DNA of 42,869 nucleotides from Acinetobacter phage vB_AbaA_LLY: the sequence record OQ503491.1. One strand, 5' to 3'. The notes beneath the pieces were generated by a model, which worked only from the letters and a program-made list of their open reading frames with translations, was not told where the DNA came from and ran no database searches. The translations under genes were made by a program, and so were the position numbers. Below are positions 3-34,780 of the stretch, piece by piece. Numbering within the stretch: position 1 is the first letter of the stretch; each line of letters opens with the position of its first letter.

Positions 3-2600
3 ATGGAAGTAGCAGTAGACACAAGCAAGGCGAACCGATTAGCCGCACTGTCCGGATTCGTACAGGACTTCGGCGTAGGTTTTGAGGAAGGAATCAAAGA
101 GAACGCGGCGGCCGCCACAGTGCGCGGCGCGATGGATGCTCAGGGTGCGGTGGACGCGATGGCCTCCAAGGACGAGGCTGTACAGAAGCAGAACATCTTC
201 GTACGTGAAGCCTACCAGGACGGCTACGTATCCGCTGCTGCATACGACTCGCTAGCCAAGTGGCGCACAGACAGTATCGCCCGGGCTAAGAAAGCTGCCG
301 AGGCGGGGCTGACTGACGAGGAGTTCCAGCAGCAAGAGCAAGAGCACGTCCAGTCTATGTCGGACAAGCTCGGTATGTATCTACCGGATATGTCCAAGCA
401 GTCCGCTACTACCATACTGCAGCAGCTCCGTGCTACCAGCATGGCGAACTATACAGCCTTCCAGAAAGGTCGAGCTGCGTTTGCCCTGGCACAGGCTGAC
501 CGTGCCCTAGACCGCGGCCTTAGCTCGTCCAGTGATGAGTTCTATCAGCGCCTACAAGCAGGGCAGGGCGCCGCTGCGCAGATGTCTATCAAGACCGGTT
601 TAGACAGTATTCTGGCCGCCGAGCACCTGGACAAGAGCAAGAAGCTGGACCGGGCCAAGCGGTATCTGGTCAGTGTAGCGCAGCAGACCCAGGATCCGCT
701 GGTAATCAACCAGCTGCAGGAAATGGCCACTAAGGAACTTGGCGTCAACTCTGTAGACGTCAACGCGGCGCTGTATCAGGAGTTCAAGCGCGCCGGTGCT
801 CAGATTGAGACCCAAGCCCGTTTCGAAATCTCCGATGAAATCCAGTCTCTTGAGGGGCAGACCCCAGAGCAGCAGGAACAGACAATGGCGCGTATTCGTA
901 GTCGCGTCATTGAGCTGTCGGCATCGGACGTGCTCAGCGCCGGGACTAGCATGGAGTTCTGGAACAAGGCCCAGACCATTCGTGAGAAGGCAGCAGACGC
1001 CCAGGCATTGCGCACGGCGATTACTGGGAATATGCCAAGCTCCACTCTGGCTGGGATGTACAAAGGCGACCTGGGTAAGGCTCGCAATGAGCTGCTCAAG
1101 AGCTTTCCGGACACCCCGGAAGGGAACCTGCAGCTGCTGGCATACGGAAGCAATAGCAAGGATGCGTGGGCCGTCAACGAGGCGCACAAGCGTATGTCTT
1201 CGGACATGGCACGTACACTGACTACCCTGGACCAACTCGGTGAGGACGGCGAGGTTTCCCGTGAGAACGTCAGCAGCATCAACCTGTGGGCCCAGGCTTA
1301 TAGCACCAGTACGGACTTAGGTAAGATGGCACTGCTGTCTGAGGTCCCGTCTGAGTGGCAGGGGGTGGTGCAGAAAGCTATTGCACAAAACCCAAGTAAC
1401 GCCAGCAACACTATCTTGGATGACCTGCGCCGCCAGGCGCGTAACAAGGCCAGTGGTCGCTACAGCAACATCCAAAGTAACCCCACGGACAAGATGGTGG
1501 ACCCTAGCGGTACCAGCAACTGGTTCAGTTTCTTTGGCGATGCCGACGCGCAGCGCCAGGAAGCGCGCGCTGCTATGGAGGAGGAGTACCGTTATACGTA
1601 CAGCCGCAACCCAGAAGCTCTGGTGGGTAAAGATGCCGAGGACATCAACACGATGCTCAAGGGTAACATCCAAGCCCGTAAGCTAGAGCTGGAAATTGCT
1701 GGTACGCCGAGGCACGTGTATCTGCCTGCCGGAACCTCTCTGCAGTCTATCATGGGCGACTACAAGGGCGACCAGGAGCAGTTCAAGGCTACGCTGCAAC
1801 GGCAGATTCAAAACCAAGTACAGGCTATCACTGACCCCAGCAACATGGAACGTGTAGTGGTGCAGGCCGCCACAGCAGGCAACGCAGGTCAGAACATGAC
1901 CGTAACCGTGTTCGACAAGAAGGGCACATTCCAGACTATGTCTGTGAACCTTCGCGACGTTCAGGCTACTGCACAAGCTGCGTATGATTCAGCACTGGCT
2001 GGAGAGATGAAGATTGGTAGCGAGCAAGTGGGTGTACGTCCCGCTACCTTCTACGACCACGATAACGGACGTGCTGTCAGCGTACAGGTCAACGGCCGTA
2101 ACGCGGTGGGGCTAGAGCCGTCGCTGTTTAGTGATATCCTCGCCACCACTATGAAGTTCGAAGGGTTCCGAGAAGGCAAGGGCAAGGGTAGCATAGGCTT
2201 TGGTCTGCACGTTAACTCTGGCATGCCAGTTCCTCAGAAAGTAACCATTGACGACGGTATCAGTATCCTCAAATCCTCTATGGAGAAGCAGTACGTTCCG
2301 AACGCGCAGAAGCAACTCAAGGGGCAGGGTTTGAATGCCTCCGACGAGGCGTTAAAGGTTATGGTGGACCTGAACTATCATGGCGGTAACGGTAGCTCTG
2401 GCCCAGTAGCAGAGGCGGTGGCTCAGGTACGCAAGGCTGCTAAGTCCCCGGTGGGGGCGTATCAGTACCCTGTATCTGAGGCCCAGGGTAGGGCTTGGCA
2501 AGCGCTGCGGAATACCCCGGCGTACAAGCAGGCCCAACCTGAGCGCAAGAAGTACCTGGAACAAAACCTACGTGATTGGCTCTTTGAGGCAACACACTAA
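3..2600 (+). CDS. Internal virion (ejection) protein with C-terminal lysozyme-like domain; 5' end truncated by window start
   Basis: Long ORF in the structural block. The C-terminal segment TMKFEGFREGKGKGSIGFGLHVN matches the T4-lysozyme/GH24 pattern EG..(Y/F)..(D/G)..G..(T/S)IG(F/I)G(H), as in phiKMV gp36-type proteins. Position is upstream of the large gp16-like protein. Confidence 0.65.
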   Translation: MEVAVDTSKANRLAALSGFVQDFGVGFEEGIKENAAAATVRGAMDAQGAVDAMASKDEAVQKQNIFVREAYQDGYVSAAAYDSLAKWRTDSIARAKKAAEAGLTDEEFQQQEQEHVQSMSDKLGMYLPDMSKQSATTILQQLRATSMANYTAFQKGRAAFALAQADRALDRGLSSSSDEFYQRLQAGQGAAAQMSIKTGLDSILAAEHLDKSKKLDRAKRYLVSVAQQTQDPLVINQLQEMATKELGVNSVDVNAALYQEFKRAGAQIETQARFEISDEIQSLEGQTPEQQEQTMARIRSRVIELSASDVLSAGTSMEFWNKAQTIREKAADAQALRTAITGNMPSSTLAGMYKGDLGKARNELLKSFPDTPEGNLQLLAYGSNSKDAWAVNEAHKRMSSDMARTLTTLDQLGEDGEVSRENVSSINLWAQAYSTSTDLGKMALLSEVPSEWQGVVQKAIAQNPSNASNTILDDLRRQARNKASGRYSNIQSNPTDKMVDPSGTSNWFSFFGDADAQRQEARAAMEEEYRYTYSRNPEALVGKDAEDINTMLKGNIQARKLELEIAGTPRHVYLPAGTSLQSIMGDYKGDQEQFKATLQRQIQNQVQAITDPSNMERVVVQAATAGNAGQNMTVTVFDKKGTFQTMSVNLRDVQATAQAAYDSALAGEMKIGSEQVGVRPATFYDHDNGRAVSVQVNGRNAVGLEPSLFSDILATTMKFEGFREGKGKGSIGFGLHVNSGMPVPQKVTIDDGISILKSSMEKQYVPNAQKQLKGQGLNASDEALKVMVDLNYHGGNGSSGPVAEAVAQVRKAAKSPVGAYQYPVSEAQGRAWQALRNTPAYKQAQPERKKYLEQNLRDWLFEATH

Positions 2601-2603
2601 CTA

Positions 2604-2621
2604 GAGGCCCTCCGGGGCCTC
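2604..2621 (+). terminator. GC-rich hairpin (GAGGCCC-tccg-GGGCCTC) between internal virion protein genes; possible terminator or RNA-processing site
   Basis: Perfect 7-bp stem with a 4-nt loop, followed by cccttatcaaaattctttt. The T tract is not immediately adjacent to the stem. Confidence 0.25.
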
Positions 2622-2650
2622 CCCTTATCAAAATTCTTTTAGGAGATATT

Positions 2651-5600
2651 ATGGCTCAGTTTCTGAACCAAGAACCGAATCCACAGGAAAAGGATTCTGC
2701 TAAGGGCGCAACACTTAAACCTGCGCCTACGCGCGTAGATTGGAACGATGCCGGAGATAACGGCTTAAATGCACTGGAACGTGCCTCCTTACTGACGCAG
2801 GCCAAGACCCCAGCTACTACAGCCGGGGAAAGCTTTGCATCGGGTATGGGCAACAGCATCATCGCCGCAGCTATCCGCAAGGCCTCTGCCCCCGCATTTG
2901 ACCGGGACCAGAACTTTAATGCCAAGCAGACGCTGAGCAGCGATACACGGGCTAAGCTGTACGCCCCAAATCAGGAAGAGATTGAGTACCTGCACGACTC
3001 GGTGTCAGTCGAGGACTATAACTACCGCATGCAGCAGATGCTTGAGCAGCGTGACCGTGACCGCTTAATGGCTGACAACACAGTAGCCGGGTTCGCGGGT
3101 ATGTTGGTAGGAGATTCCCCGTTCATCCTGGCCCCGATGTCTGCTGCTGGCATTGCTGGGCGCGCTGGCTTAGCTGTACGCACGGCTATCCGCGCCGCTG
3201 ACGTAGGCTCTGCATTCTATGCACAGGACCAACTGGGTCAGTCTGCTGCTGTAACTGCACTGGTAGCAGGCGTAGCCGGATTAGACCAGCTCTGGGATAT
3301 GTCTAGGGCGGCTAAAGCTGCCGCTAAGGCTCGTACTGGGCGTGAGCCTATGTTCGACCCAGAAGCGCCTACAACTCGTACAGCTAGGGATGCTAATGTT
3401 ACCGGAGTAGGAGAGGGGGAGGAAATTCTCACTAAGACACTGGATGAAAGCATCCAAGTATCTAGAAACAATACCGCCTCCGTGAACATGAAAGCACAGC
3501 ACGTAGTTCAGTTCTTGAAGAAGTCTGGGCACTTGACAGCAGGCCAGAAGGCTATTCTGGACACGTTGGGCGATGCTGTAAATGACATTGATTTTAAACT
3601 GGTAGCAGGCTCCGCAAACCGTAGCCGCTATACTTATGCACAACAAGATTTAGCTAAGCGAGGAGAGATATCTCTGCGCGCGCCTAAGCGAGCTAATGGC
3701 AGCACCTGGACTACAGCCGGGGACGCTCTGCGCGCTCTGGATGCGGATACAAGCAAGGTAGCCGTGCACGAACTGATTCACGCCGCCACTGCGCGCGCCG
3801 TTGACAGTAACCCCGAGATTGCTAAGCGCCTGGAGGAAGTGCGCGCTGTTATTGCAGCCGACTCCACCCTGACGCCGCGTATGCGGTATTATGCAAGTAA
3901 TGTACACGAGATGCTGGCAGGCTTAGGCGACAGCCCGGAGTGGGTTGAGCACCTGGCACGGACGCAATCCCCCACCGGTAAGAGCATGCTCCGCCAACTG
4001 GGCGAGTACATCATGAATGCCCTGGGCATCAAGGCCAAAGGTTCTGCCTTGGAGGATGTCCTGGATGCGTATGAGGACGCCGTTAAGTGGACAGCTAAGG
4101 ATTATGCAGACCAAGCTCAGAGCTTCCGTAGTGAGGCCTTCCAGGACCTGGCGGGCAGCACTACCCTCAACGAGGCTAAGGGTGCCCAAGCTATGCTGGA
4201 TGGCGCTAAGAAGAAGCTCGCTACTATGTTTGCCCTGTACGACAACATCGCTCAAGGCAATGAAGACTTGGCTAAACTACTAGTGTCGGACGCGTCCGCC
4301 GTAGGTGGCCGTCGCCCGTCTGTAGTGGACTTCAAGCGCAACCTCACTTTGGAGATGGACGCTAGCGCCAGCGTAGTGGAAGACGCTATCCTGGGCGCGT
4401 TGAAGGATAAGGGTGTAGGTTTCTCTGAGCGCTTCTTCCATAGGAGCAAGTTCCGAGCTGAGCGGGCTGCACTGGAAGACCGCCTGGGCAAGTACCTGGA
4501 TGCTGCTTATAGCGCCGACGTAAACGGGCGTCCTGTGCCTGTACCTGATGCAGAGATTGCCCCACTGGTAGACGCATACCGCAGGTCCGGGTGGGCTAGC
4601 AAGTGGCACGAGCATATGCTCAATGCCGGTCTAGTGGATGATGGTGCGTTGGTTAAATCCGACTACTATTTCCCGCGTCAGTACAGCTATGACAAGATGC
4701 GTCAAGGTATCGCACAGGGTAACACTCTGGACGACTACCGCGCCCTGTTCCGTTCCGCTCTGCGGGATGTATACCCCGGCATGGAATCCGAAACAGTACA
4801 GCGCGTTGCTAAGGAGATGGTTGACGGTATCTACAATGGCCGTGCCGGGCAATCTGGCCCTATGTGGAAGCAGCTGATTAACGGTATGGGTAACGACGAG
4901 GTCGTTATGGCTATGCGTAGCGCCGGTGTAGATGAGTCTGCAATCCAGAGCTTCCTGGCTGGTAACGTACGTGAATCCGGTAGCACATCCCCTGCGCGGA
5001 ACCTGCGCCAGCGTACTCGGTTCAATATGGACAAGGAGTATCTGGTGAATGGTAAGAGCATGCGCATGCAGGACCTGATGGATACTGACGTAGCCAAGGT
5101 TATGCACGGGTACACTAACCGTATGTCCGGCCGTGTAGGTATGGCCTACGCAGGCGTACAGGACCTGGGACAGCTCGCTAAGATGATTGATGAGTCTAAG
5201 CATGCACTGGCGGATTCCGCTAAGTGGGAGAAGACTGTCAATGACACCATCGACTTTATCCTGGGTGGGGCACCTGCTGACGCTGGGCAGCTTCCGGACT
5301 TGCTGCGTGCAGCGGGGAACATGGCGAACGCTACCATGCTTAAGAACTCCGGGCTGTATCAGCTGACTGATACTGCTCTGGCTATGAAGGAATTCGGTAT
5401 GGCTAGAGTGCTGCGTAGTATGCGTGACCAACCTTGGTTCAAGGAAGGTGCTGTAGCTATCAAGACTCCGGATATGGCTGCTCGTCTAGACATCGTGCTG
5501 CGGGGTAATATCCAGAAGGAGATGCGCTTCCGCTGGTTGAATACGTACGCCGACGATAACCTGGACCTGACCCGTCAGGCCTCTTGGTTCAACGTCACCC

Positions 5601-7285: not shown

Positions 7286-7588
7286 ATGGCAGGGGCAGCT
7301 AAACGTAGTCGCCTCTCGGAGCTGCACCACATGTTCACCGAGGCCTTGATTGAAGAAATCAAGCAGTCCAAGGAAGATGAGGTGCCGCTCCCCGCCGCAG
7401 ATAAATCAGTTATCGCCAAGTTCTTGAAGGACAATGACATCACCGCGGACGCAGATTCCGAGGAGATGCAGGACCTTCGTGATGAATTCGATGACGAACT
7501 AGCGGCGCGCAGAGAGGCGCGTAAGCAAGAGATTCTAAATAAAGTTGGTGGTTCAGACTCTGAGGACTTACTAGAAGGAATTGTCTAA
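7286..7588 (+). CDS. Terminase small subunit (DNA maturase A) candidate, 100 aa, acidic
   Basis: Small acidic ORF immediately upstream of, and translationally coupled (ATGA overlap) to, the large terminase. Position equivalent to T7 gene 18. Confidence 0.5.
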   Translation: MAGAAKRSRLSELHHMFTEALIEEIKQSKEDEVPLPAADKSVIAKFLKDNDITADADSEEMQDLRDEFDDELAARREARKQEILNKVGGSDSEDLLEGIV

Positions 7589-8157
7589 TGATATCGGCGA
7601 AGACTGCGCGAAGACTGCGCATGCTCAACCAGAAACTTACTGGTTATAGTGTGAATCCGCGCAGTATCCCCAAAGAGGAGCGCGAGGATATCGCGATGAT
7701 GATGGCCGCCGCTCTAAGCGACTTCCGGGAATTTGCGTACATCGGTATGCGGTTCCTGGGCTTTACGCTCACGGACATGCAGGCCGACATTGCAGAGTAC
7801 ATGCAGAAGGGCCCTAGGAAGCGCATGGTGGCTGCGCAGCGTGGTGAGGCTAAGTCTACACTAGCTGCACTGTACGCCGTCTGGAGGCTCATACAGGACC
7901 AATCCTGTCGTATCCTGATTGTGTCCGGCGCGGAGAAGCAGGCGTCAGACGTAGCTAACTTAATCATTCGTATGCTGGAAACCTGGCCGCTGCTGTGCTA
8001 CTTGAAGGCCGACCCTACTCGTGGGGACCGTACTTCATTCGAAGGCTATGATGTCAACTGCGATCTGAAACCGCTGGACAAGTCCGCCAGCGTAGCCTGT
8101 GTAGGTATCACTGCATCCCTGCAGGGGAAGCGCGCGGACCTGCTGATTCCTGACGAT
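7588..8157 (+). CDS. Terminase large subunit, exon 1 (ends ...GKRADLLIPDD)
   Basis: Aligns with T7 gp19 ...TDMQADIAE(Y/F)M... through GKRADIIIADD. The ORF then hits TAA, the first nucleotides of the intron. Confidence 0.85.
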
Positions 8158-8501
8158 TAACATCATAGTCGTCATTAAACCCCTTGAATTCGGTGGAAAC
8201 CCAGACCGGGCAATACCGAGCGAAGCCTCAACTGAGGAACGTGTAACGACTATTCCGTAAGGAAGTACCAGCAAGTGCTGGGAAGCGGGGGGCCTTGACT
8301 TACTGGTCAAGTGAAGATATAGTCTACTCTGCATGGGAACATGCAGTATCTACTACAAGATTTGAGCGGTAGCCGTACTTACTCCAAGAGTACGTGCCGA
8401 TTTATCCCAGCCTCTGAGAACTTATCAGACGCAGGCAACCGTCGCTGGGGTAACAAGTAGTAGGTAGGGGGAGAGGTAGCGTCCTCCCTTTAATATACAG
8501 G
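8158..8501 (+). mobile_element. Group I self-splicing intron (ORF-less, 344 nt) in the terminase large subunit gene
   Basis: Joining 8157|8502 restores the T7 gp19-like sequence PDD|IETTKNGLTQTQREQLL (T7: ADD|[17 protein letters not shown]). Exon ends in U. P1: exon 5'-UGACGAU / intron IGS 5'-GUCGUCA with U·G at the splice site. Intron ends in G. Conserved R element GUAACGACUAUUCC and S element GAAGAUAUAGUCU are present, with a P8-like hairpin CTTGAC-ttactg-GTCAAG. Confidence 0.8.
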
Positions 8502-22012: not shown

Positions 22013-22168
22013 ATGCTTAAACCGTCAGACATAAACTATCTCGATGATGAGGTAATCAAGGCGTACGCTGCGTCTGCAGGTACTTTCCGTAAACGGTTTG
22101 TGCTGGATAGTAGCCAGCTGATTGTGCATCTAGCTATCAATAAAGCTCGGAGGGCTAAATGGAAATGA
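22013..22168 (+). CDS. Small hypothetical protein (51 aa); not in the supplied ORF track
   Basis: AGGAGG RBS 5 nt upstream of the ATG. Overlaps the start of the HNH gene. Confidence 0.35.
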   Translation: MLKPSDINYLDDEVIKAYAASAGTFRKRFVLDSSQLIVHLAINKARRAKWK

Positions 22169-22587
22169 GTGAGTGTGTAGACCACGGTAAACGTAGACAC
22201 GCAGCAGGTTATGCCTACGTAAGACACAGCGGTAAGCGTGTACGACTACACCGTCTAATTTATTGCCAAAAAGCAGGTGTTGCTTTAGAAGATATAGACG
22301 GTTTAGTTGTACGACATACTTGCGATAATGCATGGTGCATCAACCCAGAACACCTTATCATAGGCACGCAGGCGGACAATATACGGGACGCTGTAGAGCG
22401 CGGACGCAATGCTAAAGGTTCCAGTAACGGGCAATCCAAACTAACGCCAGAAGCGGTGATGTATTGCAGGGAGCACTACGTAGCCTACCATCCAGAATTC
22501 GGCGGGGCTGCGCTGGCTAGAAGGTTCGGCGTAGGCTGTTCGGTTGTGCACGACGCTATAAAAGGAAAGACTTGGAGGGGTGTGTGA
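22159..22587 (+). CDS. Free-standing HNH homing endonuclease
   Basis: HNH core VVRHTCDNAWCINPEHLIIGTQADN (H...N...H). Located immediately upstream of, and overlapping, DNA polymerase exon 1. Confidence 0.75.
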   Translation: MEMSECVDHGKRRHAAGYAYVRHSGKRVRLHRLIYCQKAGVALEDIDGLVVRHTCDNAWCINPEHLIIGTQADNIRDAVERGRNAKGSSNGQSKLTPEAVMYCREHYVAYHPEFGGAALARRFGVGCSVVHDAIKGKTWRGV

Positions 22588-24014
22588 GCAGTATTCTATT
22601 TACAGATTATGAAACGGAGAACCACCAGTACTACGGGGGCGTTGCATCTCCATATTGCCCGGATAACTATATAGTCGAGAGCGGTTGGCGAATAGACCGC
22701 ACAAATCCGGATGGCTCTGTTGACGTAGGTACAGTGCAGAGCGTACGTTACGCTAACAAGGAGGAGTTTAAAGCGGCGCCGGTTAGCGAGTGGTTCCCCA
22801 TTCAAGAGGACACTTGGTTAATCGTAGCCCACAACCTGGCCTATGAGTGCTCTTGGTGGTTGACCTATGCACGCAAAGAGTTCGAGGCATTTTTAAAGCG
22901 CGGGGGTCGTGTATTCTGCACAATGCACGGGCACTACATTGCGTCAGACTTTCAGGACATGTACCCATCGCTCGACGAGACCGCACCTAAATACGGAGGC
23001 ACCCACAAGGTTGACGGGGTTAAGTTACTGTGGGAACAAGGTGTACGCACATCTGAAATCGACCCCATACTTTTACATGAATATCTTGTAGGGCCGAGCG
23101 GCGACATTGTGAATACCGCGGTCTGTTTCTACGGGGAATGCGCTGTATTCACAGAGCGCAACCAAATGCAGTATGTGTGGGAACGTCAAGATGCGCTACT
23201 AGCCTGGAGCTATTGCGAATTTTTTGGCCTGTTCGTGAACATGCCGATTGCTCGCAAGAACCAAGAGGAGCAGGAGCAGCGCATCCGCGAGATTAAGCAG
23301 GAGCTGCAGCAGTACATCCCGAAGGACTTGCCGGATACGCTGGATTTCAACTTCGGCTCGGACTTTCATATGTCCGCACTGGTGTACGGTGGGCCTATCA
23401 AGTACCGCAAGAAGGTTCCATACGACCCTCCGCAGTACGTTAAGGCAGACTTCTACAAGTACGAGGACGCAGAGGGTGCGCACACCTATATACCTGTACA
23501 CGACACGCACATGCAAGCACTGCAAACGGAAGGCGGGTGCTGGCGTGTAGTGACATATCGTGCGGGTAAGAACAAGGGGCTCCCTAAAGTATTCCGCCTC
23601 GATACCGAGGAAGAGAAACTTAAATGGGAAGACGACCTTTACTTCTGCCCGGGCCTAGTGAACATCCAGGAGCTTCCGGAAGTTATCCGGGAGAAGTACG
23701 CAGAGCGCGGTGAGTTCCGACAGGCGCGCACCCTGCATGACGGTACGCCAGTATACAGCACCAGCACCGACGCGATGGAGGCGCTGGCTCGCCAAGGGTT
23801 CGAGTTCTGTAAGTTGGTGAACGAACTGGCGGCGCTGGAGAAGGATACCGGCACTTACTATTTGCGAGAAGTACTGGACGCAGAAGGTAAGGTAAAAGAG
23901 CGGAAGGGGATGCTGCAGTATGTAATCCCGGAGCGTCCCGATGGTTCCGGCATCATTCACCACCGGCTGAATACATGCGCCACCGTAACCGGACGCCTGT
24001 CGGGTTCAAACCCT
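22572..24014 (+). CDS. DNA polymerase (family A), exon 1 (3'-5' exo and N-terminal polymerase region; ends ...TGRLSGSNP)
   Basis: Exo I motif LFTDYETEN. Ends in the conserved TGRLS(S)xxP motif, then an in-frame TAA that belongs to the intron. Confidence 0.85.
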
Positions 24015-24713
24015 TAACGGTTAGGGGTTTTAAAACCATGTGAACTCAGGGGAAGCCCAGACCGGGTAATCCTGAACCAATCCAGTCCCATCTACCTTCG
24101 GAGGTACATATGGACAGCATTAAGAATCTGATTGAAAACACCACCTTAACCTTAGAAGAGATTCAAGCGCAGGTGGGTTGTGGTATGCGCACGGTACGTA
24201 ATGTGTGGGCTAGTTACCCCGCCGCCTTCAGAAAGGCGCGTAAAGCGGGGTGCTATCGCAGGTCCAAGTTGGGGGATAAAAACCCTATGTTTGGCAAGCA
24301 CAGCACAGAGCACCATAATTACATCGGGGTTGTATCTGATGGGAAGGGCTACCTGATGGCACTGAAGCCAGACTGGTACACCGGGCGCAAGGGTAGTAAG
24401 CACGTGTTCGTGCACCAACTAGTTGTGTGCAAGGCATTAGGCATAACTGCTATGCCAGCTGGTTGGGTGGTACATCACTGCGATGAAAACCCTCACAACA
24501 ATGACTTCAGCAACTTAGTGTTGATGCTTAATGCAGACCATCGACGTCTGCATTCTGCACTGGCAGGTGCAACGACTATCTCGAAAGAGAGTACACTCAA
24601 GTGGGTGGAAGCGCATGGCACGCCGTGGCGTGAAGATATAGTCTGAACTGCATAGGAATATGCAGCAGCCCCGAGGGGCGGGCGCAGATTAACGAACTGC
24701 GTTGAACACAATG
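24015..24713 (+). mobile_element. Group I intron (699 nt) in the DNA polymerase gene, encoding an HNH homing endonuclease
   Basis: Splicing 24014|24714 restores RLSGSNP|NLQNLP (compare Pol I STGRLSSTDPNLQNIP). Exon ends in U. P1: exon AAACCCU pairs with intron GGGGUUU (U·G wobble). Intron ends in G. R element GCAACGACUAUCUCG and S element GUGAAGAUAUAGUCU are followed by the hairpin CTGCATAGGAATATGCAG. The 5' region is homologous to the other two introns. Confidence 0.85.
24110..24646 (+). CDS. Intron-encoded HNH homing endonuclease
   Basis: HNH motif GWVVHHCDENPHNNDFSNLVLMLNADHRRLH. The ORF's 3' end overlaps the ribozyme core (R, P8, S). Confidence 0.8.
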   Translation: MDSIKNLIENTTLTLEEIQAQVGCGMRTVRNVWASYPAAFRKARKAGCYRRSKLGDKNPMFGKHSTEHHNYIGVVSDGKGYLMALKPDWYTGRKGSKHVFVHQLVVCKALGITAMPAGWVVHHCDENPHNNDFSNLVLMLNADHRRLHSALAGATTISKESTLKWVEAHGTPWREDIV

Positions 24714-30072: not shown

Positions 30073-30229
30073 GTTATACTACGAGGGGAAACATGATGAA
30101 CTTGAAACTATTCTGGATGCGCTGCGTGAACGAGCACCCAAAACACATCGAAGAACGGTTGAGCATTTGGATTCTATCATTCACGACAATGCTATGCTGG
30201 ATGTAATTGGGGAGATTCAGGTATGGTAG
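30029..30229 (+). CDS. Hypothetical small protein (66 aa; ORF track start 29960)
   Basis: ATG 30029 with a CAGGAGC RBS. Overlaps the exonuclease 3' end. Confidence 0.35.
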   Translation: MAKMSAKEMSLRAIELYYEGKHDELETILDALRERAPKTHRRTVEHLDSIIHDNAMLDVIGEIQVW

Positions 30230-31077
30230 ATTATGATTTCCCTAAGCGGATCATCTTACAGGGGGAGAGGGTAGGCCGTAGGCCGGACCTGCCAGAAGAG
30301 TTCCGTTTTGACGGCGAGGTGTTTAGGGGCATCCCATCTTCGGAGATGAATTTAGCGTGCTCTGCAACGGGGCGCTTCGTCGGCAAGACCGGTAAGATTC
30401 TTACCCCTAGAAAACAGAGTTCAGGGTACCTGTGGTATTCGTGGGTAAACGAATCTAGGGTATGTGCTAACGTCTATGCACACAGAGGTGTGGCTGAGGT
30501 GTGGTTAGCCCCAAGAGCCGGGGCGTATTACGTAAATCACAAGGATGGAAACAAGCATAACAATGCTGCAGATAACTTGGAATGGTGTACTTCTGCAGAA
30601 AACACACAGCACGCCATAGCTTCCGGACTGGTATGGAATTTGCCCAGGAAGGGGGAGGCTGGATTCCGTAGGATGACCCGCGCCCAGAACCGACAGGTAC
30701 AGACAAAGCTATGGAGGGAGCAGGGTGGGGTGTGCCCTATATGTGGGCTTCCCATAGACTTGCAGGCCAGTAGCAAGAATAATGGCCCTGTCACGGACCA
30801 TATACACGATGATACAGGGGCGGTTAGAGCGGTTCTACACAGAGGGTGCAACGGCTTTCTCGGTAAAGCGGAGAACACTACCCGCTGGGCGGGCGTATCT
30901 CCTAATGATAACGATCGGATAGCGGATTTGCTGATAAGCGCTGGGCATTATCTGATGTCCGAACCAACTCACATCCAGTATTATACAGTGCGTACGCCGG
31001 AAGAATTGGCGCAGGCACAGAAGCTCAAGGCCCGCAAGGCCCGGGCACGACGCAAAGCACGGGAGACTATTAAATGA
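30223..31077 (+). CDS. HNH endonuclease domain fused to an endonuclease VII-type (Holliday-junction-resolving) domain
   Basis: N-terminal region: YVNHKDGNKHNNAADNLEWCTSAENTQHA (HNH of the I-HmuI-like family). C-terminal region: GGVCPICGLPIDL...VTDHIHDDTGAVRAVLHRGCNGFLGKAEN matches T4 endo VII (GKCLICQ...HLDHDHE...GKVRGLLCNLCN). An internal Met at ~30670 could initiate a separate resolvase. Confidence 0.65.
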   Translation: MVDYDFPKRIILQGERVGRRPDLPEEFRFDGEVFRGIPSSEMNLACSATGRFVGKTGKILTPRKQSSGYLWYSWVNESRVCANVYAHRGVAEVWLAPRAGAYYVNHKDGNKHNNAADNLEWCTSAENTQHAIASGLVWNLPRKGEAGFRRMTRAQNRQVQTKLWREQGGVCPICGLPIDLQASSKNNGPVTDHIHDDTGAVRAVLHRGCNGFLGKAENTTRWAGVSPNDNDRIADLLISAGHYLMSEPTHIQYYTVRTPEELAQAQKLKARKARARRKARETIK

Positions 31078-31527: not shown

Positions 31528-33319
31528 ATGATTCACGCACTGAATACGGTTGTAGTATCAGAGGAAGCACTGGTGAAACGCCAGCTGGAGCTTGAAGAGG
31601 CCTATAAGATTCGCGGAATCGAGCGGGCACGTAAGCTGATTACGGACGCATTGCAGAACGGTGGGATTATGAACCTGCCGATGACGCAGCGTATGCTCAC
31701 CTCGGCATATGAGGTGGCTGCTGCCGCTATCGATGAGATGCGAAATGTCAAAGCCCCGGGCATTGGTGGGAAGTACCGCCGGTTCTTGCGCTTAGTCCCC
31801 TTGGATGTCCTGACCACCCTGAGCCTGTGCACAATGTTTGAGGCATTCAGCGTCGCCCCCGGCGAGTCCGCTAGTCGCCGCCAGACTGCACAGGCGGTAA
31901 TGTCCGCACTGGGCCGGAACGTACAATCGGAGCTGCTGGCACTGCAGTTACGCAACGTAGCCCCGGCGTACATGGACCGTGTATACGAGTACCTCACAGA
32001 GCGTCGTACGAAGTCCCCTACGCACATCCTGCGTACGCTCCGTGCCAGTGCCGAGAACGTGCACTATGGGCACGAGCCTTGGACCAATGCCCAGAACATC
32101 TCCGTAGGGCGTCTGCTGTGTGCCGCAGTGTTTGAGACGGGCCTGTTCCAGTGGAAGAACTGTAGCGGTAATCTGAGCATGCTATACCCCGCAGACAACG
32201 TTATGGAAGCATTCCAGCAGTTAGTGGAATCTGCCGACACTGTGACGATGAAGCCGCCTATGCTGGTACCGCCGGTGCGGCACACTACTCTGTGGGATGG
32301 TGGGTACCTTACCCCTATCGACAATCGCGGTACCTATCATAATTCTCACATTGACCGCGCGCGTCTCCGCGAAGTAGCGGAAGCATTTAAGTCCGCGGAC
32401 GGAATCAAGAAGGCGCTTAATAAGGCACAGGAAACCCCATACCGCATTAATAAGCGCATACTGGAACTGGTGCAAGAAGCACGGGCCCTGGGTGTTGGGA
32501 TAGGCATGCCTCGCTCAGTACCAGAGCCGAAACCGGAGTGGTATCTGGACGGGGTTCCGAAAGAGAACTACACCGAGGAAGAGCTTGACCGATTCGGTGA
32601 GTGGAAGACGCGCATGTCTCTATGGTATAGCGCTGACCGTAAGCGTGTATCGCAACTACGCAGCCTTCTGACTACGTTGGAAATGGCGGAGGAATTCAAA
32701 GATGAGAAAGCCTTGTACTTCCCGACTTGTGTGGACTGGCGTTACCGCCTGTACTTCAAGTCCTCGCTGCACCCCCAAGGTTCGGATTTGCAGAAAGCCC
32801 TTCTTGAGTTTGGCAGAGGAAAACCTCTGGGTGAGCGGGGACTATTCTGGCTCAAGGTACACGTCGCCACATGCTTTGGTTATGACAAAACCTTATTCGA
32901 AGACCGCGCAGCTTGGGTTGATGCGAACTTTGCAGCGCTCGGAGAGCTTGTGGTTTCACCGTTTGATTGCCCTGCTTTTGCCGAGGCAGACAGTCCCTGG
33001 TGTTTTCTGGCCGCCGCTATCGACCTGGTTAATGCTGTGCGTTCTGGATGCCCAGAAGAGTATATTAGCCGAATCCCGGTGGCTATGGACGCTACAAACT
33101 CAGGTGGACAACATCTCTCAGCGCTTCTGAGAGACCCTGTGGGCGGTCGTCTGACGAACCTGTACTGGGAGGGTAACGATAAGAAAGCGGACCTGTACAT
33201 GGACGTGAAGCGCCGTACAGACGAGAAGGTGATACTGGACCTGGACAAGGAGGATTTCGTTATCCAGAGCACGTACTGGAGAGAGAACGAAATCACCCGC
33301 AGCATGACCAAAAGACCGT
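31528..33319 (+). CDS. Single-subunit phage RNA polymerase, exon 1 (ends ...ITRSMTKRP + first nt of a Ser codon)
   Basis: T7-RNAP-like throughout. The ORF runs to the conserved TKR(S/P)(V/S)MT motif, then a TAA within the intron. Confidence 0.8.
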
Positions 33320-34103
33320 TAATGCACATCGGCGGTCTATAAACTAGGTGAATTCAGGGGACGGCTAGAACAGCCAATCCTGAGCGAAGCTACTACTGTG
33401 CGGCCTTATAGGAGGTCGTATGGAAACTAGGCAGTGCACAAAATGTAACGAAGTTAAACCTCTATCATCCTTCTCTAAAGGCACGCGAAGCGCAAACACG
33501 TTCCGCGGTGCCAGGGAGGTGGGCAAAGTAATTTATAAACCTACGTGTAAAATGTGCGATGCCGCCTACGCCAAGGCGTGGCGGGCAGCAAACCCAGATT
33601 ATCAGAAGAGGCAGAGAGCTAAACGAGCAAGGGTCGAGGTCTTGTCTATAGACCCTATGCTTAAATCCTTCGTGTCTTGTCGGGTGGCAGATGCAAAGGC
33701 TAGGGCAGCAGCTCGTAATTTGCCTTATGACTTGGATAGGGAATACATGTTGGCTATATGGGACGGGGTGTGCGCACTGTCCGGGGTGCCGATTAATTGC
33801 CACAAAGGCAGTATGTACATCGGCTCCATTGATAGAGTTAACCCCGAACTTGGTTATGTTAAGGGGAACGTGCAGTGGGTATCTTGGCAAGTTAATCGGG
33901 CTAAGGGAGAATACTCGCTGGAAGATTTAATTACAATGTGCCGCGCAGTAGTAGAACGTGCAGAGACTATCCGAAAGGAGTAGGGCCAAGCGGCCCGAAG
34001 CGCCTAGCCCCTTTAGTGGGTGATGATATAGTCCGACCTGTATGGGGACATACAGCAGCCGTAAGGCGGGGGATACCTAGCGAGTATCCCCGAACACTTT
34101 TTG
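33320..34103 (+). mobile_element. Group I intron (784 nt) in the phage RNA polymerase gene, encoding a Zn-finger/HNH-like endonuclease
   Basis: Splice 33319|34104 gives ...ITRSMTKRP-S-MTYFYSATV (T7 RNAP: VTRSVTKRSVMTLAYGSKE; mitochondrial RNAPs: VMTNVYGVT). Exon ends in U. P1: exon AGACCGU pairs with intron GCGGUCU (U·G). Intron ends in G. R element GCAGAGACUAUCCG, P8-like GGGCCAAGCGGCCC, S element GAUGAUAUAGUCCG, and the hairpin CTGTATGGGGACATACAG. The 5' region GAATTCAGGGG...CAATCCTGAGCGAAGC is homologous to the other two introns. Confidence 0.75.
33420..33983 (+). CDS. Intron-encoded endonuclease (N-terminal CxxC...CxxC zinc ribbon; C-terminal HNH/His-Me-finger-like motif)
   Basis: CTKCNEV...CKMCD zinc ribbon, then GSIDRVNPELGYVKGNVQWVSWQVNRAKG, which resembles an HNH/endo VII-type beta-beta-alpha motif with a trailing Asn/Lys. 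Good RBS (AGGAGG) before the ATG. Confidence 0.55.
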   Translation: METRQCTKCNEVKPLSSFSKGTRSANTFRGAREVGKVIYKPTCKMCDAAYAKAWRAANPDYQKRQRAKRARVEVLSIDPMLKSFVSCRVADAKARAAARNLPYDLDREYMLAIWDGVCALSGVPINCHKGSMYIGSIDRVNPELGYVKGNVQWVSWQVNRAKGEYSLEDLITMCRAVVERAETIRKE

Positions 34104-34780
34104 CGATGACTTACTTCTACAGCGCTACGGTGCGTAGCTGTAGTGATTATATCTTTGCAGGTGCCTGTGAAGAGGGGTACGAAGGAACGGATACACATAG
34201 TCTATGGAACCTATCCTGCTACCTGGCACCGCGTATGCGTACCGCTATTGAGGAGGCAAACCCAGCTGCGGCAGCAGTTATGGGGTACTTGCAGAACCTC
34301 GCTAGACGTGTACCAGCAAGCCAGCACCTGCAGTGGACTACGCCGCTAGGCGGGCTTGTAATGAACCGCTACACGCAGCGTGAAGAAGTGCGGGTACGCA
34401 TTGACTGTATGAACCTCACCATCATGCGCGTGCATAATCGGGATTTCAAGACCTGCAACAAGCGCAAGGCAGCCTCGGGGATTGCCCCGAACTTTGTGCA
34501 CAGCCTGGATAGTACGCACTTGATGATGGTTCTATGTGCCGCCGAGGGTCTGGACATTGTGCCGATTCACGACTCCCTAGCTACACATGCAGCCGATGTT
34601 GATACTATGCACCGGCACATCCGCGAGCAGTTTGTGCGTCTCTACGAAGAGCACGACCTTCTTGGGGATATCACTCGCGCGGCGGCAGCAGCTGGGGCGG
34701 ACTTGACGGATTTGGATATGCCTGAGGTAGGTACCCTGGACATCCGGCAAGTGCTAGAATCCCCTTTCTTCTTTTCATAA
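34104..34780 (+). CDS. Single-subunit phage RNA polymerase, exon 2 (C-terminal palm/thumb: GIAPNFVHSLDSTHL ... ILESPFFFS)
   Basis: Conserved T7 RNAP motif C region QESGIAPNFVHSQDGSHL and the C-terminal foot DILESDFAFA are matched. Confidence 0.8.

What the first reader, a model, noticed from the sequence alone, without database searches (positions are those of the whole stretch)
33320..34103. Group I intron with endonuclease ORF splitting the phage single-subunit RNA polymerase gene
The T7-like RNAP reading frame stops inside the universally conserved TKRSVMT-LAYGS motif. It resumes 784 nt downstream. Joining U33319 to C34104 gives TKRP-S-MTYFYSATV, an exact in-frame restoration of that motif. 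The intervening sequence shows the following group I hallmarks:
- 5' exon ends in U, paired to G in a 7-bp P1 (AGACCGU/GCGGUCU);
- 3'-terminal G;
- R-like GAGACUA and S-like GAUAUAGUC elements in the right order;
- a P8-like hairpin;
- an internal endonuclease ORF.
The transcription enzyme needed to express the phage's own middle/late genes therefore depends on self-splicing. I am not aware of a described intron in a phage RNAP gene.
Basis: partly seen in the sequence, partly recalled or inferred. Interest (0 to 1): 0.9.

Follow-up and report, generated by a model that had tools for sequence, protein, structure and literature searches.

The report
Self-splicing intron in phage RNA polymerase gene
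A Klebsiella phage carries a mobile, self-splicing group I intron with its own nuclease gene in the catalytic heart of its T7-type RNA polymerase gene; introns of this type are well known in phages, but I found no paper describing one in this kind of polymerase gene, although related copies sit unrecognised in several other phage genomes.

Summary
The window is a KP34-like (Drulisvirus) Klebsiella phage. Its single-subunit RNA polymerase (RNAP) gene is interrupted by exactly 784 nt (33320-34103). Removing them gives an 822-aa protein that aligns without gaps (811/822) to an intact homologue.

The insert has the full anatomy of a group I intron:
- U·G at the 5' splice site in a 7-bp P1, a contiguous 5-bp P10, and a terminal G;
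- P3-P9.2 with the P3/P7 pseudoknot and P7.1/P7.2.

The Rfam score is sub-threshold (30.3 bits, gathering 50). ORF-less relatives score 63-85 bits, and other ORF-bearing relatives score 25-42. Across 17 related introns, 94.8% of cells pair and 30 of 53 pairs show compensatory changes.

The 187-aa ORF sits in the P6a loop. It is a ββα-Me (HNH-superfamily) nuclease under purifying selection.

Related introns split the same RNAP motif B in Pectobacterium and Pseudomonas syringae phages and in several metagenome contigs, none annotated as introns. No paper describing an intron in a T7-type RNAP gene was found. An intron in a jumbo-phage multisubunit RNAP gene (ΦPA3) is published.

Verdict: a new member of a known kind, of moderate interest. 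Splicing itself is untested.

The parts
31528..33319 (+). RNAP exon 1 (597 codons plus 1 nt; ends T-K-R-P + U)
   Evidence: ORF list and translation. Pfam RPOL_N and RNA_pol profile positions 1-164.
33313..33319 (+). P1 5' strand (exon AGACCGU); U33319 is the 5' splice-site U
   Evidence: Pairs with 33332-33338 in 7 bp with a U·G wobble. The guide sequence covaries with the exon in PPWS1, Draal03 and L025.
33320..34103 (+). Group I intron, 784 nt
   Evidence: Exactly absent from the intact allele of phage RCIP0099. RF00028 at 30.3 bits, E=1.2e-5. Covarying core.
33327..33338 (+). Internal guide sequence CAUCG|GCGGUCU (P10 part 33327-31, P1 part 33332-38)
   Evidence: Complementary to ligated exons AGACCGU|CGAUG apart from the U·G.
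33340..33342 (+). UAA stop ending read-through of the exon-1 frame, just after P1 and before P3
   Evidence: ORF 31528..33342. The position relative to the helices is read.
33344..33350 (+). P3 5' strand (pairs with 34001-34007)
   Evidence: 7 bp. Across 17 introns 99.2% of cells pair and 5 of 7 pairs show double changes.
33354..33383 (+). P4 (33354-59 / 33378-83) enclosing P5 (33363-66 / 33372-75)
   Evidence: P4 is 100% paired with 2 covarying pairs. P5 is 85% paired with 2 covarying pairs.
33384..33404 (+). P6 5' strand (33384-85) and P6a 5' strand (33390-33404)
   Evidence: The 15-bp P6a pairs with 33940-54 (duplex -29.8 kcal/mol). Compensatory changes occur in L018, L021 and L023.
33410..33415 (+). 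Shine-Dalgarno AGGAGG, 4 nt upstream of the ORF's ATG, in the P6a loop
   Evidence: Read from the sequence.
33420..33983 (+). Intron ORF, 187 aa: Cys4 zinc ribbon plus ββα-Me (HNH-superfamily) nuclease, putative homing endonuclease
33940..33959 (+). P6a 3' strand (33940-54) and P6 3' strand (33958-59), inside the ORF's last codons
33960..33969 (+). J6/7 and P7 5' strand (R element; P7 is GACUA at 33965-69)
   Evidence: P7 pairs with 34029-33 and is invariant in 17 of 17 introns.
33970..33996 (+). P7.1 (33970-79, GAAA loop) and P7.2 (33983-96)
   Evidence: P7.1 is 98% paired with 3 of 3 pairs covarying. P7.2 is 100% paired with 4 of 5 covarying.
34001..34007 (+). P3 3' strand
34008..34020 (+). 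P8, a minimal 3-bp hairpin and the weakest element
   Evidence: Relatives have longer P8 helices at the same place.
34021..34033 (+). J8/7 and P7 3' strand (S element UGAUGAUAUAGUC)
34038..34091 (+). P9 (34038-55, GGGA loop), P9.1 (34058-67, GUAA loop) and P9.2 (34069-91)
   Evidence: P9 is 100% paired with 4 of 7 pairs covarying. P9.2 is 87.5% paired with 6 of 8 covarying.
34103..34103 (+). Terminal G (ωG), the last intron nucleotide
34104..34780 (+). RNAP exon 2 (starts CG AUG ACU...; 34104-08 is the P10 exon strand)
   Evidence: RNA_pol profile 164-366.

Best explanation
33320-34103 is a mobile group I intron of the P7.1/P7.2-bearing (IA-type) family that is common in phage DNA-replication genes. 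It is inserted in the DNA that encodes motif B (the O-helix region) of the phage's single-subunit RNAP.

Proposed sequence of events:
1. The gene lies at the end of the replication module, directly upstream of the head-tail connector. In phiKMV/KP34-type phages this region is transcribed by the host polymerase (my own knowledge).
2. In the pre-mRNA, the guide sequence CAUCGGCGGUCU pairs with the end of exon 1 (P1, with U33319·G33332) and with the start of exon 2 (P10).
3. The core P3-P9.2 folds around the P3/P7 pseudoknot.
4. An external guanosine attacks after U33319.
5. The freed exon-1 3'-OH attacks after G34103, joining ...ACC AAA AGA CCG U|CG AUG ACU... to give the complete 822-aa RNAP.
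6. Ribosomes that read an unspliced message stop at UAA 33340-42, before the catalytic core.
7. The 187-aa ββα-Me nuclease, encoded in the P6a loop with its own Shine-Dalgarno, most likely nicks or cuts intron-less RNAP alleles of co-infecting relatives. This would drive homing of the intron and possibly harm the competitor.

Shown here: the boundaries, the RNA architecture and its covariation, the nuclease fold and selection on the ORF, and presence/absence polymorphism. Inferred: splicing activity, nuclease activity and target, and which polymerase transcribes the gene.
For: - **Exact insertion.** The insertion is unambiguous against an intact allele, and the joined protein is gapless with 811/822 identity. 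The Pfam profile is contiguous at position 164, and the alignment across motif B of solved ssRNAPs has no gap.
- **Splice-site features.** P1 of 7 bp with U·G, a contiguous 5-bp P10 and ωG are present. The same features occur in 8 RNAP introns, with guide-exon covariation: AGACCGU/GCGGUCU, ACCCGU/GCGGGU, GCCCGU/GCGGGC and UGACCU/GGGUCA.
- **Rfam.** RF00028 scores 30.3 bits, E=1.2e-5. ORF-less relatives sharing about 80% core identity score 62.8-84.7 bits, while ORF-bearing ones score 25.6-42.4.
- **Covariation.** On 17 related introns, 94.8% of cells pair against 30-40% for slid partners. Thirty of 53 pairs show double changes, and 0 of 500 shuffles reach the observed score. P6a, which closes the ORF loop, covaries.
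- **ORF.** It matches PHROG 'endonuclease VII', has a ββα-Me fold and has dN/dS of 0.05-0.12.
- **Mobility.** The intron is present in only 2 of 248 matching GenBank phage records, while most relatives have an intact RNAP gene. Intron-less alleles with the same flanks exist.
- **Viability.** Plaque-forming isolates HF0522 and KPN234 carry it.
Against: - No RNA data are available. Splicing is inferred from structure only.
- The Rfam score is below the gathering threshold (30.3 against 50).
- P8 is only 3 bp in this copy.
- The nuclease lacks the canonical first histidine of the HNH motif. That position is R, K or Q across the family. It also matches no Pfam, NCBIfam or PDB sequence model, so its activity and target are unproven.
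Confidence: 0.9

Rival explanations
1. The RNAP is a naturally split enzyme. The 604-aa N-fragment and a 224-aa C-fragment are translated separately and assemble. The intervening DNA is merely a free-standing homing-endonuclease cassette that is never removed from the RNA.
For: GenBank annotators called two 'DNA-dependent RNA polymerase' CDS plus a hypothetical protein in HF0522, KPN234, PPWS1 and Draal03. An ATG (34106) lies 2 nt into exon 2. T7 RNAP is known to tolerate some splits (my own knowledge).
Against: - The break falls inside motif B, between the Lys and Tyr that align with the catalytic O-helix residues.
- No Shine-Dalgarno precedes 34106.
- The flanking non-coding RNA has a complete, covarying group I core whose guide sequence matches both exon ends. 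A simple endonuclease cassette would have no reason to keep this.
- ORF-less members of the same RNA family occur in other genes.
Confidence: 0.04
2. The intron is real but decayed: it no longer splices efficiently, or its endonuclease is inactive. It would be a relic carried by a few lineages, with low RNAP output compensated in some other way.
For: P8 is minimal at 3 bp. The HNH first histidine is missing. The intron is rare among Drulisvirus records.
Against: - All 53 modelled pairs are canonical in this copy.
- Changes between copies are compensatory, for example in P9.2 and P6a.
- The ORF is under purifying selection, with dN/dS of 0.05-0.12.
- The R/K/Q substitution is family-wide, not a recent lesion.
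- The carriers are viable isolates whose only RNAP gene is the interrupted one.
Confidence: 0.05
3. The insert is an assembly or chimera artefact, or an intein-like protein-level element.
For: None beyond the general possibility.
Against: - The same insertion is found in independent isolates and in independent metagenome assemblies from ENA, IMG/VR and JGI.
- The RNAP frame hits a stop 8 codons into the insert, and the ORF is in a different frame with its own start. This rules out an intein.
Confidence: 0.01

Closest known systems
[quoted passage not shown]
   Same: It is the same RNA family. Both core halves are about 80% identical, and one shared covarying structure with P7.1/P7.2 and P9.1/P9.2 fits all of them. 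The ORF is looped out of P6, and the element inserts in a highly conserved polymerase motif. The window itself has such an intron in its DNA polymerase gene.
   Different: The host gene is the single-subunit RNA polymerase, and the guide sequence is retargeted to the RNAP motif-B codons. The nuclease belongs to a different sub-family (PHROG 1035/3322, with R/K/Q in place of His). Every homologue whose context I checked lies between RNAP fragments.
ΦPA3 intron with HNH endonuclease gp210 in the β-subunit gene of a jumbo-phage multisubunit RNAP (Birkholz et al. 2024, PMC11620839)
   Same: It is a group I intron plus an HNH-superfamily nuclease interrupting a conserved catalytic region of a phage-encoded RNA polymerase gene. 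It is polymorphic between related phages that can co-infect.
   Different: The RNAP there is a multisubunit, cellular-type enzyme unrelated to T7-type enzymes, and the phage group is different. For ΦPA3, nicking of the rival's gene and a competitive advantage were shown experimentally. Nothing has been tested here.
Phage T4 td, nrdB and sunY introns (subgroup IA2)
   Same: From my own knowledge of these introns: P7.1/P7.2 extensions, an ORF looped out of a peripheral helix (P6a in td and nrdB), the ORF's 3' end overlapping core sequence, and an early stop for the exon reading frame.
   Different: No P2 helix lies between P1 and P3 in this copy. The endonucleases differ (GIY-YIG or HNH in T4, from my own knowledge), as do the host genes.

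Membership tests
Group I intron (Rfam RF00028) | 5' splice site follows a U that forms a U·G wobble within P1, made with an internal guide sequence | tested here: met
   U33319·G33332 lies in the 7-bp P1 AGACCGU/GCGGUCU. Guide and exon covary in 8 RNAP introns.
Group I intron (Rfam RF00028) | Last intron nucleotide is G (ωG), and the 3' exon pairs with the guide sequence (P10) | tested here: met
   G34103 is fixed by comparison with the intron-less allele. P10 is CGAUG/CAUCG, 5 bp and contiguous with P1.
Group I intron (Rfam RF00028) | Conserved core P3-P4-P5-P6 and P7-P3'-P8-P7' with the P3/P7 pseudoknot, supported by covariation | tested here: met
   All 53 pairs are canonical in this copy. 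On 17 homologues 94.8% of cells pair and 30 of 53 pairs have double changes. Slid controls give 30-40%, and 0 of 500 shuffles reach the score.
Group I intron (Rfam RF00028) | Covariance-model score at or above the curated gathering threshold (50 bits) | tested here: inconclusive
   There is no hit at gathering. A local scan gives 30.3 bits, E=1.2e-5, with the R element misplaced because of the ORF loop. ORF-less relatives score 62.8-84.7 bits and ORF-bearing relatives 25.6-42.4. A scan of the ORF-deleted sequence could not be run with these tools.
Group I intron (Rfam RF00028) | Guanosine-dependent self-splicing | not testable with these tools
   This needs in vitro transcription with GTP and Mg2+, or cDNA from infected cells.
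Subgroup IA (IA2-like) group I introns | Extra helices P7.1 and P7.2 between P7 and P3' (definition recalled from Michel & Westhof 1990) | tested here: met
   P7.1 lies at 33970-79 and P7.2 at 33983-96. Both covary.
HNH / His-Me finger (ββα-Me) homing endonucleases | ββα-metal fold | tested here: met
HNH / His-Me finger (ββα-Me) homing endonucleases | Canonical catalytic histidine (first H of H-N-H) and a match to the Pfam HNH or Endonuclease_7 models | tested here: not met
   The family motif is S-x-D-[R/K/Q]...GY..GN.......N..K, with R139 here where the His is expected. There is no Pfam, NCBIfam or PDB sequence hit. It is therefore filed as HNH-superfamily by fold, not as a canonical HNH.
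HNH / His-Me finger (ββα-Me) homing endonucleases | Site-specific cleavage or nicking of the intron-less allele, and intron homing | not testable with these tools
   Only indirect support exists: presence/absence polymorphism and exclusive association with RNAP insertion sites.
T7-type single-subunit RNA polymerase (host gene) | Contiguous Pfam RNA_pol domain and motif B after exon joining | tested here: met
   The RNA_pol profile runs 1-164 in exon 1 and 164-366 in exon 2. There is gapless 811/822 identity to an intact RNAP and a gapless alignment to POLRMT structures across the junction.

The most novel reading that the evidence does not exclude
This would be one member of an unrecognised lineage of group I introns with a dedicated, histidine-less ββα-Me nuclease, specialised for motif B of T7-type phage RNA polymerases. 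The lineage occupies at least three insertion points within about 10 nt, across several Autographiviridae genera. It may act as ΦPA3 gp210 does, as a weapon that disables the sole RNAP gene of co-infecting intron-less relatives. It may also make late transcription contingent on ribozyme folding, and so on the GTP and translation state of the host.
Probability: 0.3. Interest if true: 0.65.

Novelty: new member of a known kind. Interest (0 to 1): 0.45.

Why it matters
In KP34/phiKMV-type phages the single-subunit RNAP is the only enzyme that transcribes the late genes. An intron in its catalytic O-helix therefore places a ribozyme step upstream of the whole late programme.

It also extends the ΦPA3 precedent, an intron nuclease aimed at a rival's RNAP gene, to the large and therapeutically used Autographiviridae. 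That includes Klebsiella phages now being assembled into cocktails, where intron-plus and intron-minus relatives may interfere with each other.

There is a practical point as well. Current annotations split these RNAP genes into two CDS plus a 'hypothetical protein'. This corrupts RNAP-based taxonomy and pangenome counts.

Tried and rejected
- **Rfam at gathering threshold** found only the terminase intron, not this one. The permissive local scan was needed.
- **First covariation count** used plain nested brackets. P3 and P7 were therefore mis-paired with each other and gave misleading numbers (80.7% paired). It was redone with P7 written as a pseudoknot.
- **Sequence searches with the ORF** found nothing useful in Pfam, NCBIfam or PDB. 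Only PHROGs and the fold search were informative.
- **IMG/VR search with the single ORF** reached only close relatives. Context look-ups of more distant homologues were more useful.
- **Diagnostic exon base.** I tested whether the exon G at -6 (AGA against AAA, which pairs in P1) marks intron presence. It does not: an intron-less allele with AGA exists (L027).
- **Literature.** Nine searches found no description of an intron in a single-subunit phage RNAP gene. The PPWS1 genome paper does not mention its split RNAP. The library excludes most subscription journals, so absence is not proof.
- **Not resolved.** The exact boundary in contig L023 could be phase 1 or phase 2. The exact exon boundaries of the terminase and DNA polymerase introns were not determined.

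Full report
**What the window is.** A 4.5-kb query around the finding matches 248 phage records, 232 of them Klebsiella phages of the KP34 (Drulisvirus) type, at 90-97% identity. The gene order is endonuclease VII, small ORFs, RNA polymerase, two small ORFs, then head-tail connector. This is the phiKMV/KP34 arrangement.

**The observation.**
- The RNAP reading frame opens at 31528 and stops at 33340-42. An ORF in the correct frame resumes, and contains MTYFYSATV from 34106.
- Joining 33319 to 34104 gives an in-frame 822-aa protein.
- That protein aligns without any gap to the intact 822-aa RNAP of phage RCIP0099, with 811 of 822 residues identical. The junction reads TKRPSMTYF against TKKPSMTYF.
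- At the DNA level the intact allele lacks exactly 33320-34103. The bases on the two sides of each boundary differ (T|T and G|C), so the boundaries cannot be slid.
- The Pfam RNA_pol match ends at profile position 164 in exon 1 and restarts at 164 in exon 2.
- A 169-aa stretch spanning the junction aligns without a gap to solved mitochondrial RNAP structures: itrsmtkrpsmtyfysat against ITRKVVKQTVMTVVYGVT.
- From my own knowledge of T7 RNAP, this is motif B (TKRSVMTLAYGS, K631 to Y639). The intron therefore sits between the codons for the catalytic Lys and Tyr.

**Is it a group I intron?**

*Rfam.* At the curated threshold Rfam finds nothing here. A local permissive scan gives RF00028 at 30.3 bits, E=1.2e-5. 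P3-P6 and P7'-P9 are correctly placed, but the R element is misplaced because of the ORF.

*Hand model.* I built the structure by hand, and all 53 modelled pairs are canonical:

| Element | Coordinates | Note |
|---|---|---|
| P1 | 33313-19 / 33332-38 | U33319·G33332 |
| P10 | 33327-31 (CAUCG) / 34104-08 (CGAUG) | contiguous with P1 |
| P3 | 33344-50 / 34001-07 | |
| P4 | 33354-59 / 33378-83 | |
| P5 | 33363-66 / 33372-75 | |
| P6 | 33384-85 / 33958-59 | |
| P6a | 33390-404 / 33940-54 | 15 bp, closes the ORF loop |
| P7 | 33965-69 / 34029-33 | |
| P7.1 | 33970-79 | GAAA loop |
| P7.2 | 33983-96 | |
| P8 | 34008-20 | only 3 bp |
| P9 | 34038-55 | GGGA loop |
| P9.1 | 34058-67 | GUAA loop |
| P9.2 | 34069-91 | |
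| ωG | 34103 | |

The 12-nt guide sequence is complementary to the ligated exon junction except for the obligatory U·G.

*Relatives.*
- A distant BLAST of the intron hits 175 phage records through its two core halves.
- ORF-less relatives pass Rfam comfortably at 62.8-84.7 bits. Examples are the Acinetobacter KEN_02 DNA pol, the T4-like G2285 DNA pol (already annotated Intron_gpI), Pseudoalteromonas HP1, RCIP0099, Ralstonia DU_RP_I and Xanthomonas phiXacJX1.
- Every ORF-bearing relative scores 25.6-42.4 bits, like this one. The sub-threshold score is therefore an insertion penalty, not evidence against membership.

*Covariation.*
- I aligned 17 cores with their ORF loops replaced by a linker and counted pairs for my structure, writing P7 as a pseudoknot.
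- 94.8% of cells pair, against 30-40% when partners are slid by 1-3 columns.
- Thirty of 53 pairs show changes on both sides, and 0 of 500 shuffles reach the observed covariation score.
- P3 is 99% paired with 5 of 7 pairs covarying. P7 is invariant. P7.2, P9 and P9.2 covary at 4/5, 4/7 and 6/8 pairs.
- P6a also covaries among RNAP introns, even though its 3' strand encodes the C-terminus of the ORF.

**The ORF.**
- ORF 33420-33983 has an AGGAGG 4 nt upstream. It lies in the P6a loop, and its last 44 nt double as P6a', P6', J6/7, P7 and P7.1.
- It has no Pfam, NCBIfam or PDB sequence match. It does match PHROG 1035 'endonuclease VII' (1.6e-29) and phrog_3322.
- Homologues share a CxxC...CxxC zinc ribbon and the motif S-x-D-[R/K/Q]-x6-GY-xx-GN-x8-N-xx-K. 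The canonical first His of HNH is absent across the whole family.
- dN/dS is 0.12 against KPN234 and 0.05 against a more distant copy.

**Distribution.**
- The same intron at the same site occurs in Klebsiella phages HF0522 (99.4% identical) and KPN234 (94.5%). Both are annotated as two RNAP CDS plus a hypothetical protein. It also occurs in IMG/VR and ENA contigs L017, L018 and L021.
- Related introns split the RNAP of Pectobacterium phages PPWS1 and PPWS2 (Kotilavirus), Pseudomonas syringae phages Draal01-03 and Drael01, another phiKMV-like contig L023 and a 57.6-kb contig L025.
- For PPWS1, joining the exons gives 400 nt that align colinearly to intact RNAP genes of PP16, CX5 and MA2.
- The insertion points differ slightly: CCG U|CG in the window, CCC GU|U in PPWS1 and Draal03 (1 nt downstream), and ACC U|CU in L025 (about 9 nt downstream). 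In each case a U·G-containing P1 is matched to the local exon.
- Most Drulisvirus records have an uninterrupted RNAP gene. Intron-less alleles with either AAA or AGA at the -6 codon exist.

**Mechanism.** This section is inference, resting on established group I chemistry and phage homing.
1. The pre-mRNA folds.
2. External guanosine attacks after U33319.
3. The freed exon 1 attacks after G34103.
4. The ligated mRNA encodes the full RNAP that transcribes the late genes.
5. Unspliced messages yield a 604-aa truncated product that ends before P3.
6. The nuclease, expressed from the intron, targets intron-less alleles in mixed infections and spreads the intron by repair.

**Rival readings.**
- *Separately translated split RNAP.* This is disfavoured by the break inside motif B, by the absence of an SD before 34106, and by the conserved ribozyme.
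- *Decayed relic.* This is disfavoured by compensatory changes, by purifying selection, and by viable isolates whose only RNAP gene is interrupted.
- *Intein or assembly artefact.* Both are excluded by the early stop in the RNAP frame and by independent occurrences.

**Comparison and novelty.** The RNA belongs to the same family as the introns in T7-like and other phage DNA polymerase genes. The window itself carries one of these in its DNA pol gene and another, ORF-less, in its terminase gene.

An intron in a phage RNAP gene is already published for ΦPA3. That enzyme is a multisubunit one, and nuclease-mediated competition was demonstrated there.

I found no paper describing an intron in a single-subunit T7-type RNAP gene, within a library that lacks most subscription journals.

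I therefore rate this a new member of a known kind. It is mechanistically conventional and untested at the RNA level.

Noticed in passing
window 8097-8346: An ORF-less group I intron of the same family passes the Rfam gathering threshold (68.2 bits, E=2.4e-15). It lies between the two parts of the large terminase gene (ORFs 7588..8160 and ..9788). Exact exon boundaries were not determined.
   Followed up: partly
window ~24005-24680 (ORF 24110-24646): A third group I intron carries its own 178-aa ORF and interrupts the DNA polymerase gene at TGRLSGSNP|NLQNLPR. Rfam gives 36.1 bits, E=1.2e-6. Its core fits the covarying family structure (row win_DNAP in alignment A1). The 43-kb genome therefore carries three introns of one family.
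   Followed up: partly
window 30223-31077: A 284-aa ORF combines an HNH_3 motif (residues 100-128) with an Endonuclease_7 domain (156-222). Related phages have a 140-aa endonuclease VII at this place. The same 284-aa fusion is seen in ENA contig L021.
   Followed up: no
L004 (PPWS1), L016 (Draal03), L025 versus window 33319/34104: Related RNAP introns sit 1 nt (CCC GU|U) or about 9 nt (ACC U|CU) downstream of the window's site (CCG U|CG). In each the guide sequence is re-matched to the local exon. This suggests repeated retargeting within motif B rather than a single ancestral insertion.
   Followed up: partly
L025 (JGI contig Ga0671655_0000226), locus 2454-5227: The RNAP region of this 57.6-kb contig looks fragmented more than once. 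It holds a 139-aa RNA_pol fragment, the intron ORF, a 256-aa piece with no Pfam hit, and then a separate HNH_3 ORF.
   Followed up: no
L006 (Pakpunavirus CAb02 DNA pol, locus ~2480-3200): A related intron appears to interrupt the family-A DNA polymerase within its own motif B (...RSPAKNV|...YGAQAGK). This would be the structural equivalent of the RNAP site. The boundaries were not worked out.
   Followed up: no
window 22288: A 12-mer resembling the S element (GATGATATAGTC, up to 2 mismatches) lies inside ORF 22159..22587. No 5' partner and no covariance-model hit were found there, so it is probably chance.
   Followed up: partly
intron ORF family (alignment A2/A3): The nuclease also gives weaker matches to PHROGs annotated 'Srd anti-sigma factor' (phrog_1400, 6e-14) and 'decoy of host sigma70' (phrog_4592, 1e-5). 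These PHROGs may be mis-annotated, or a domain may be shared.
   Followed up: no
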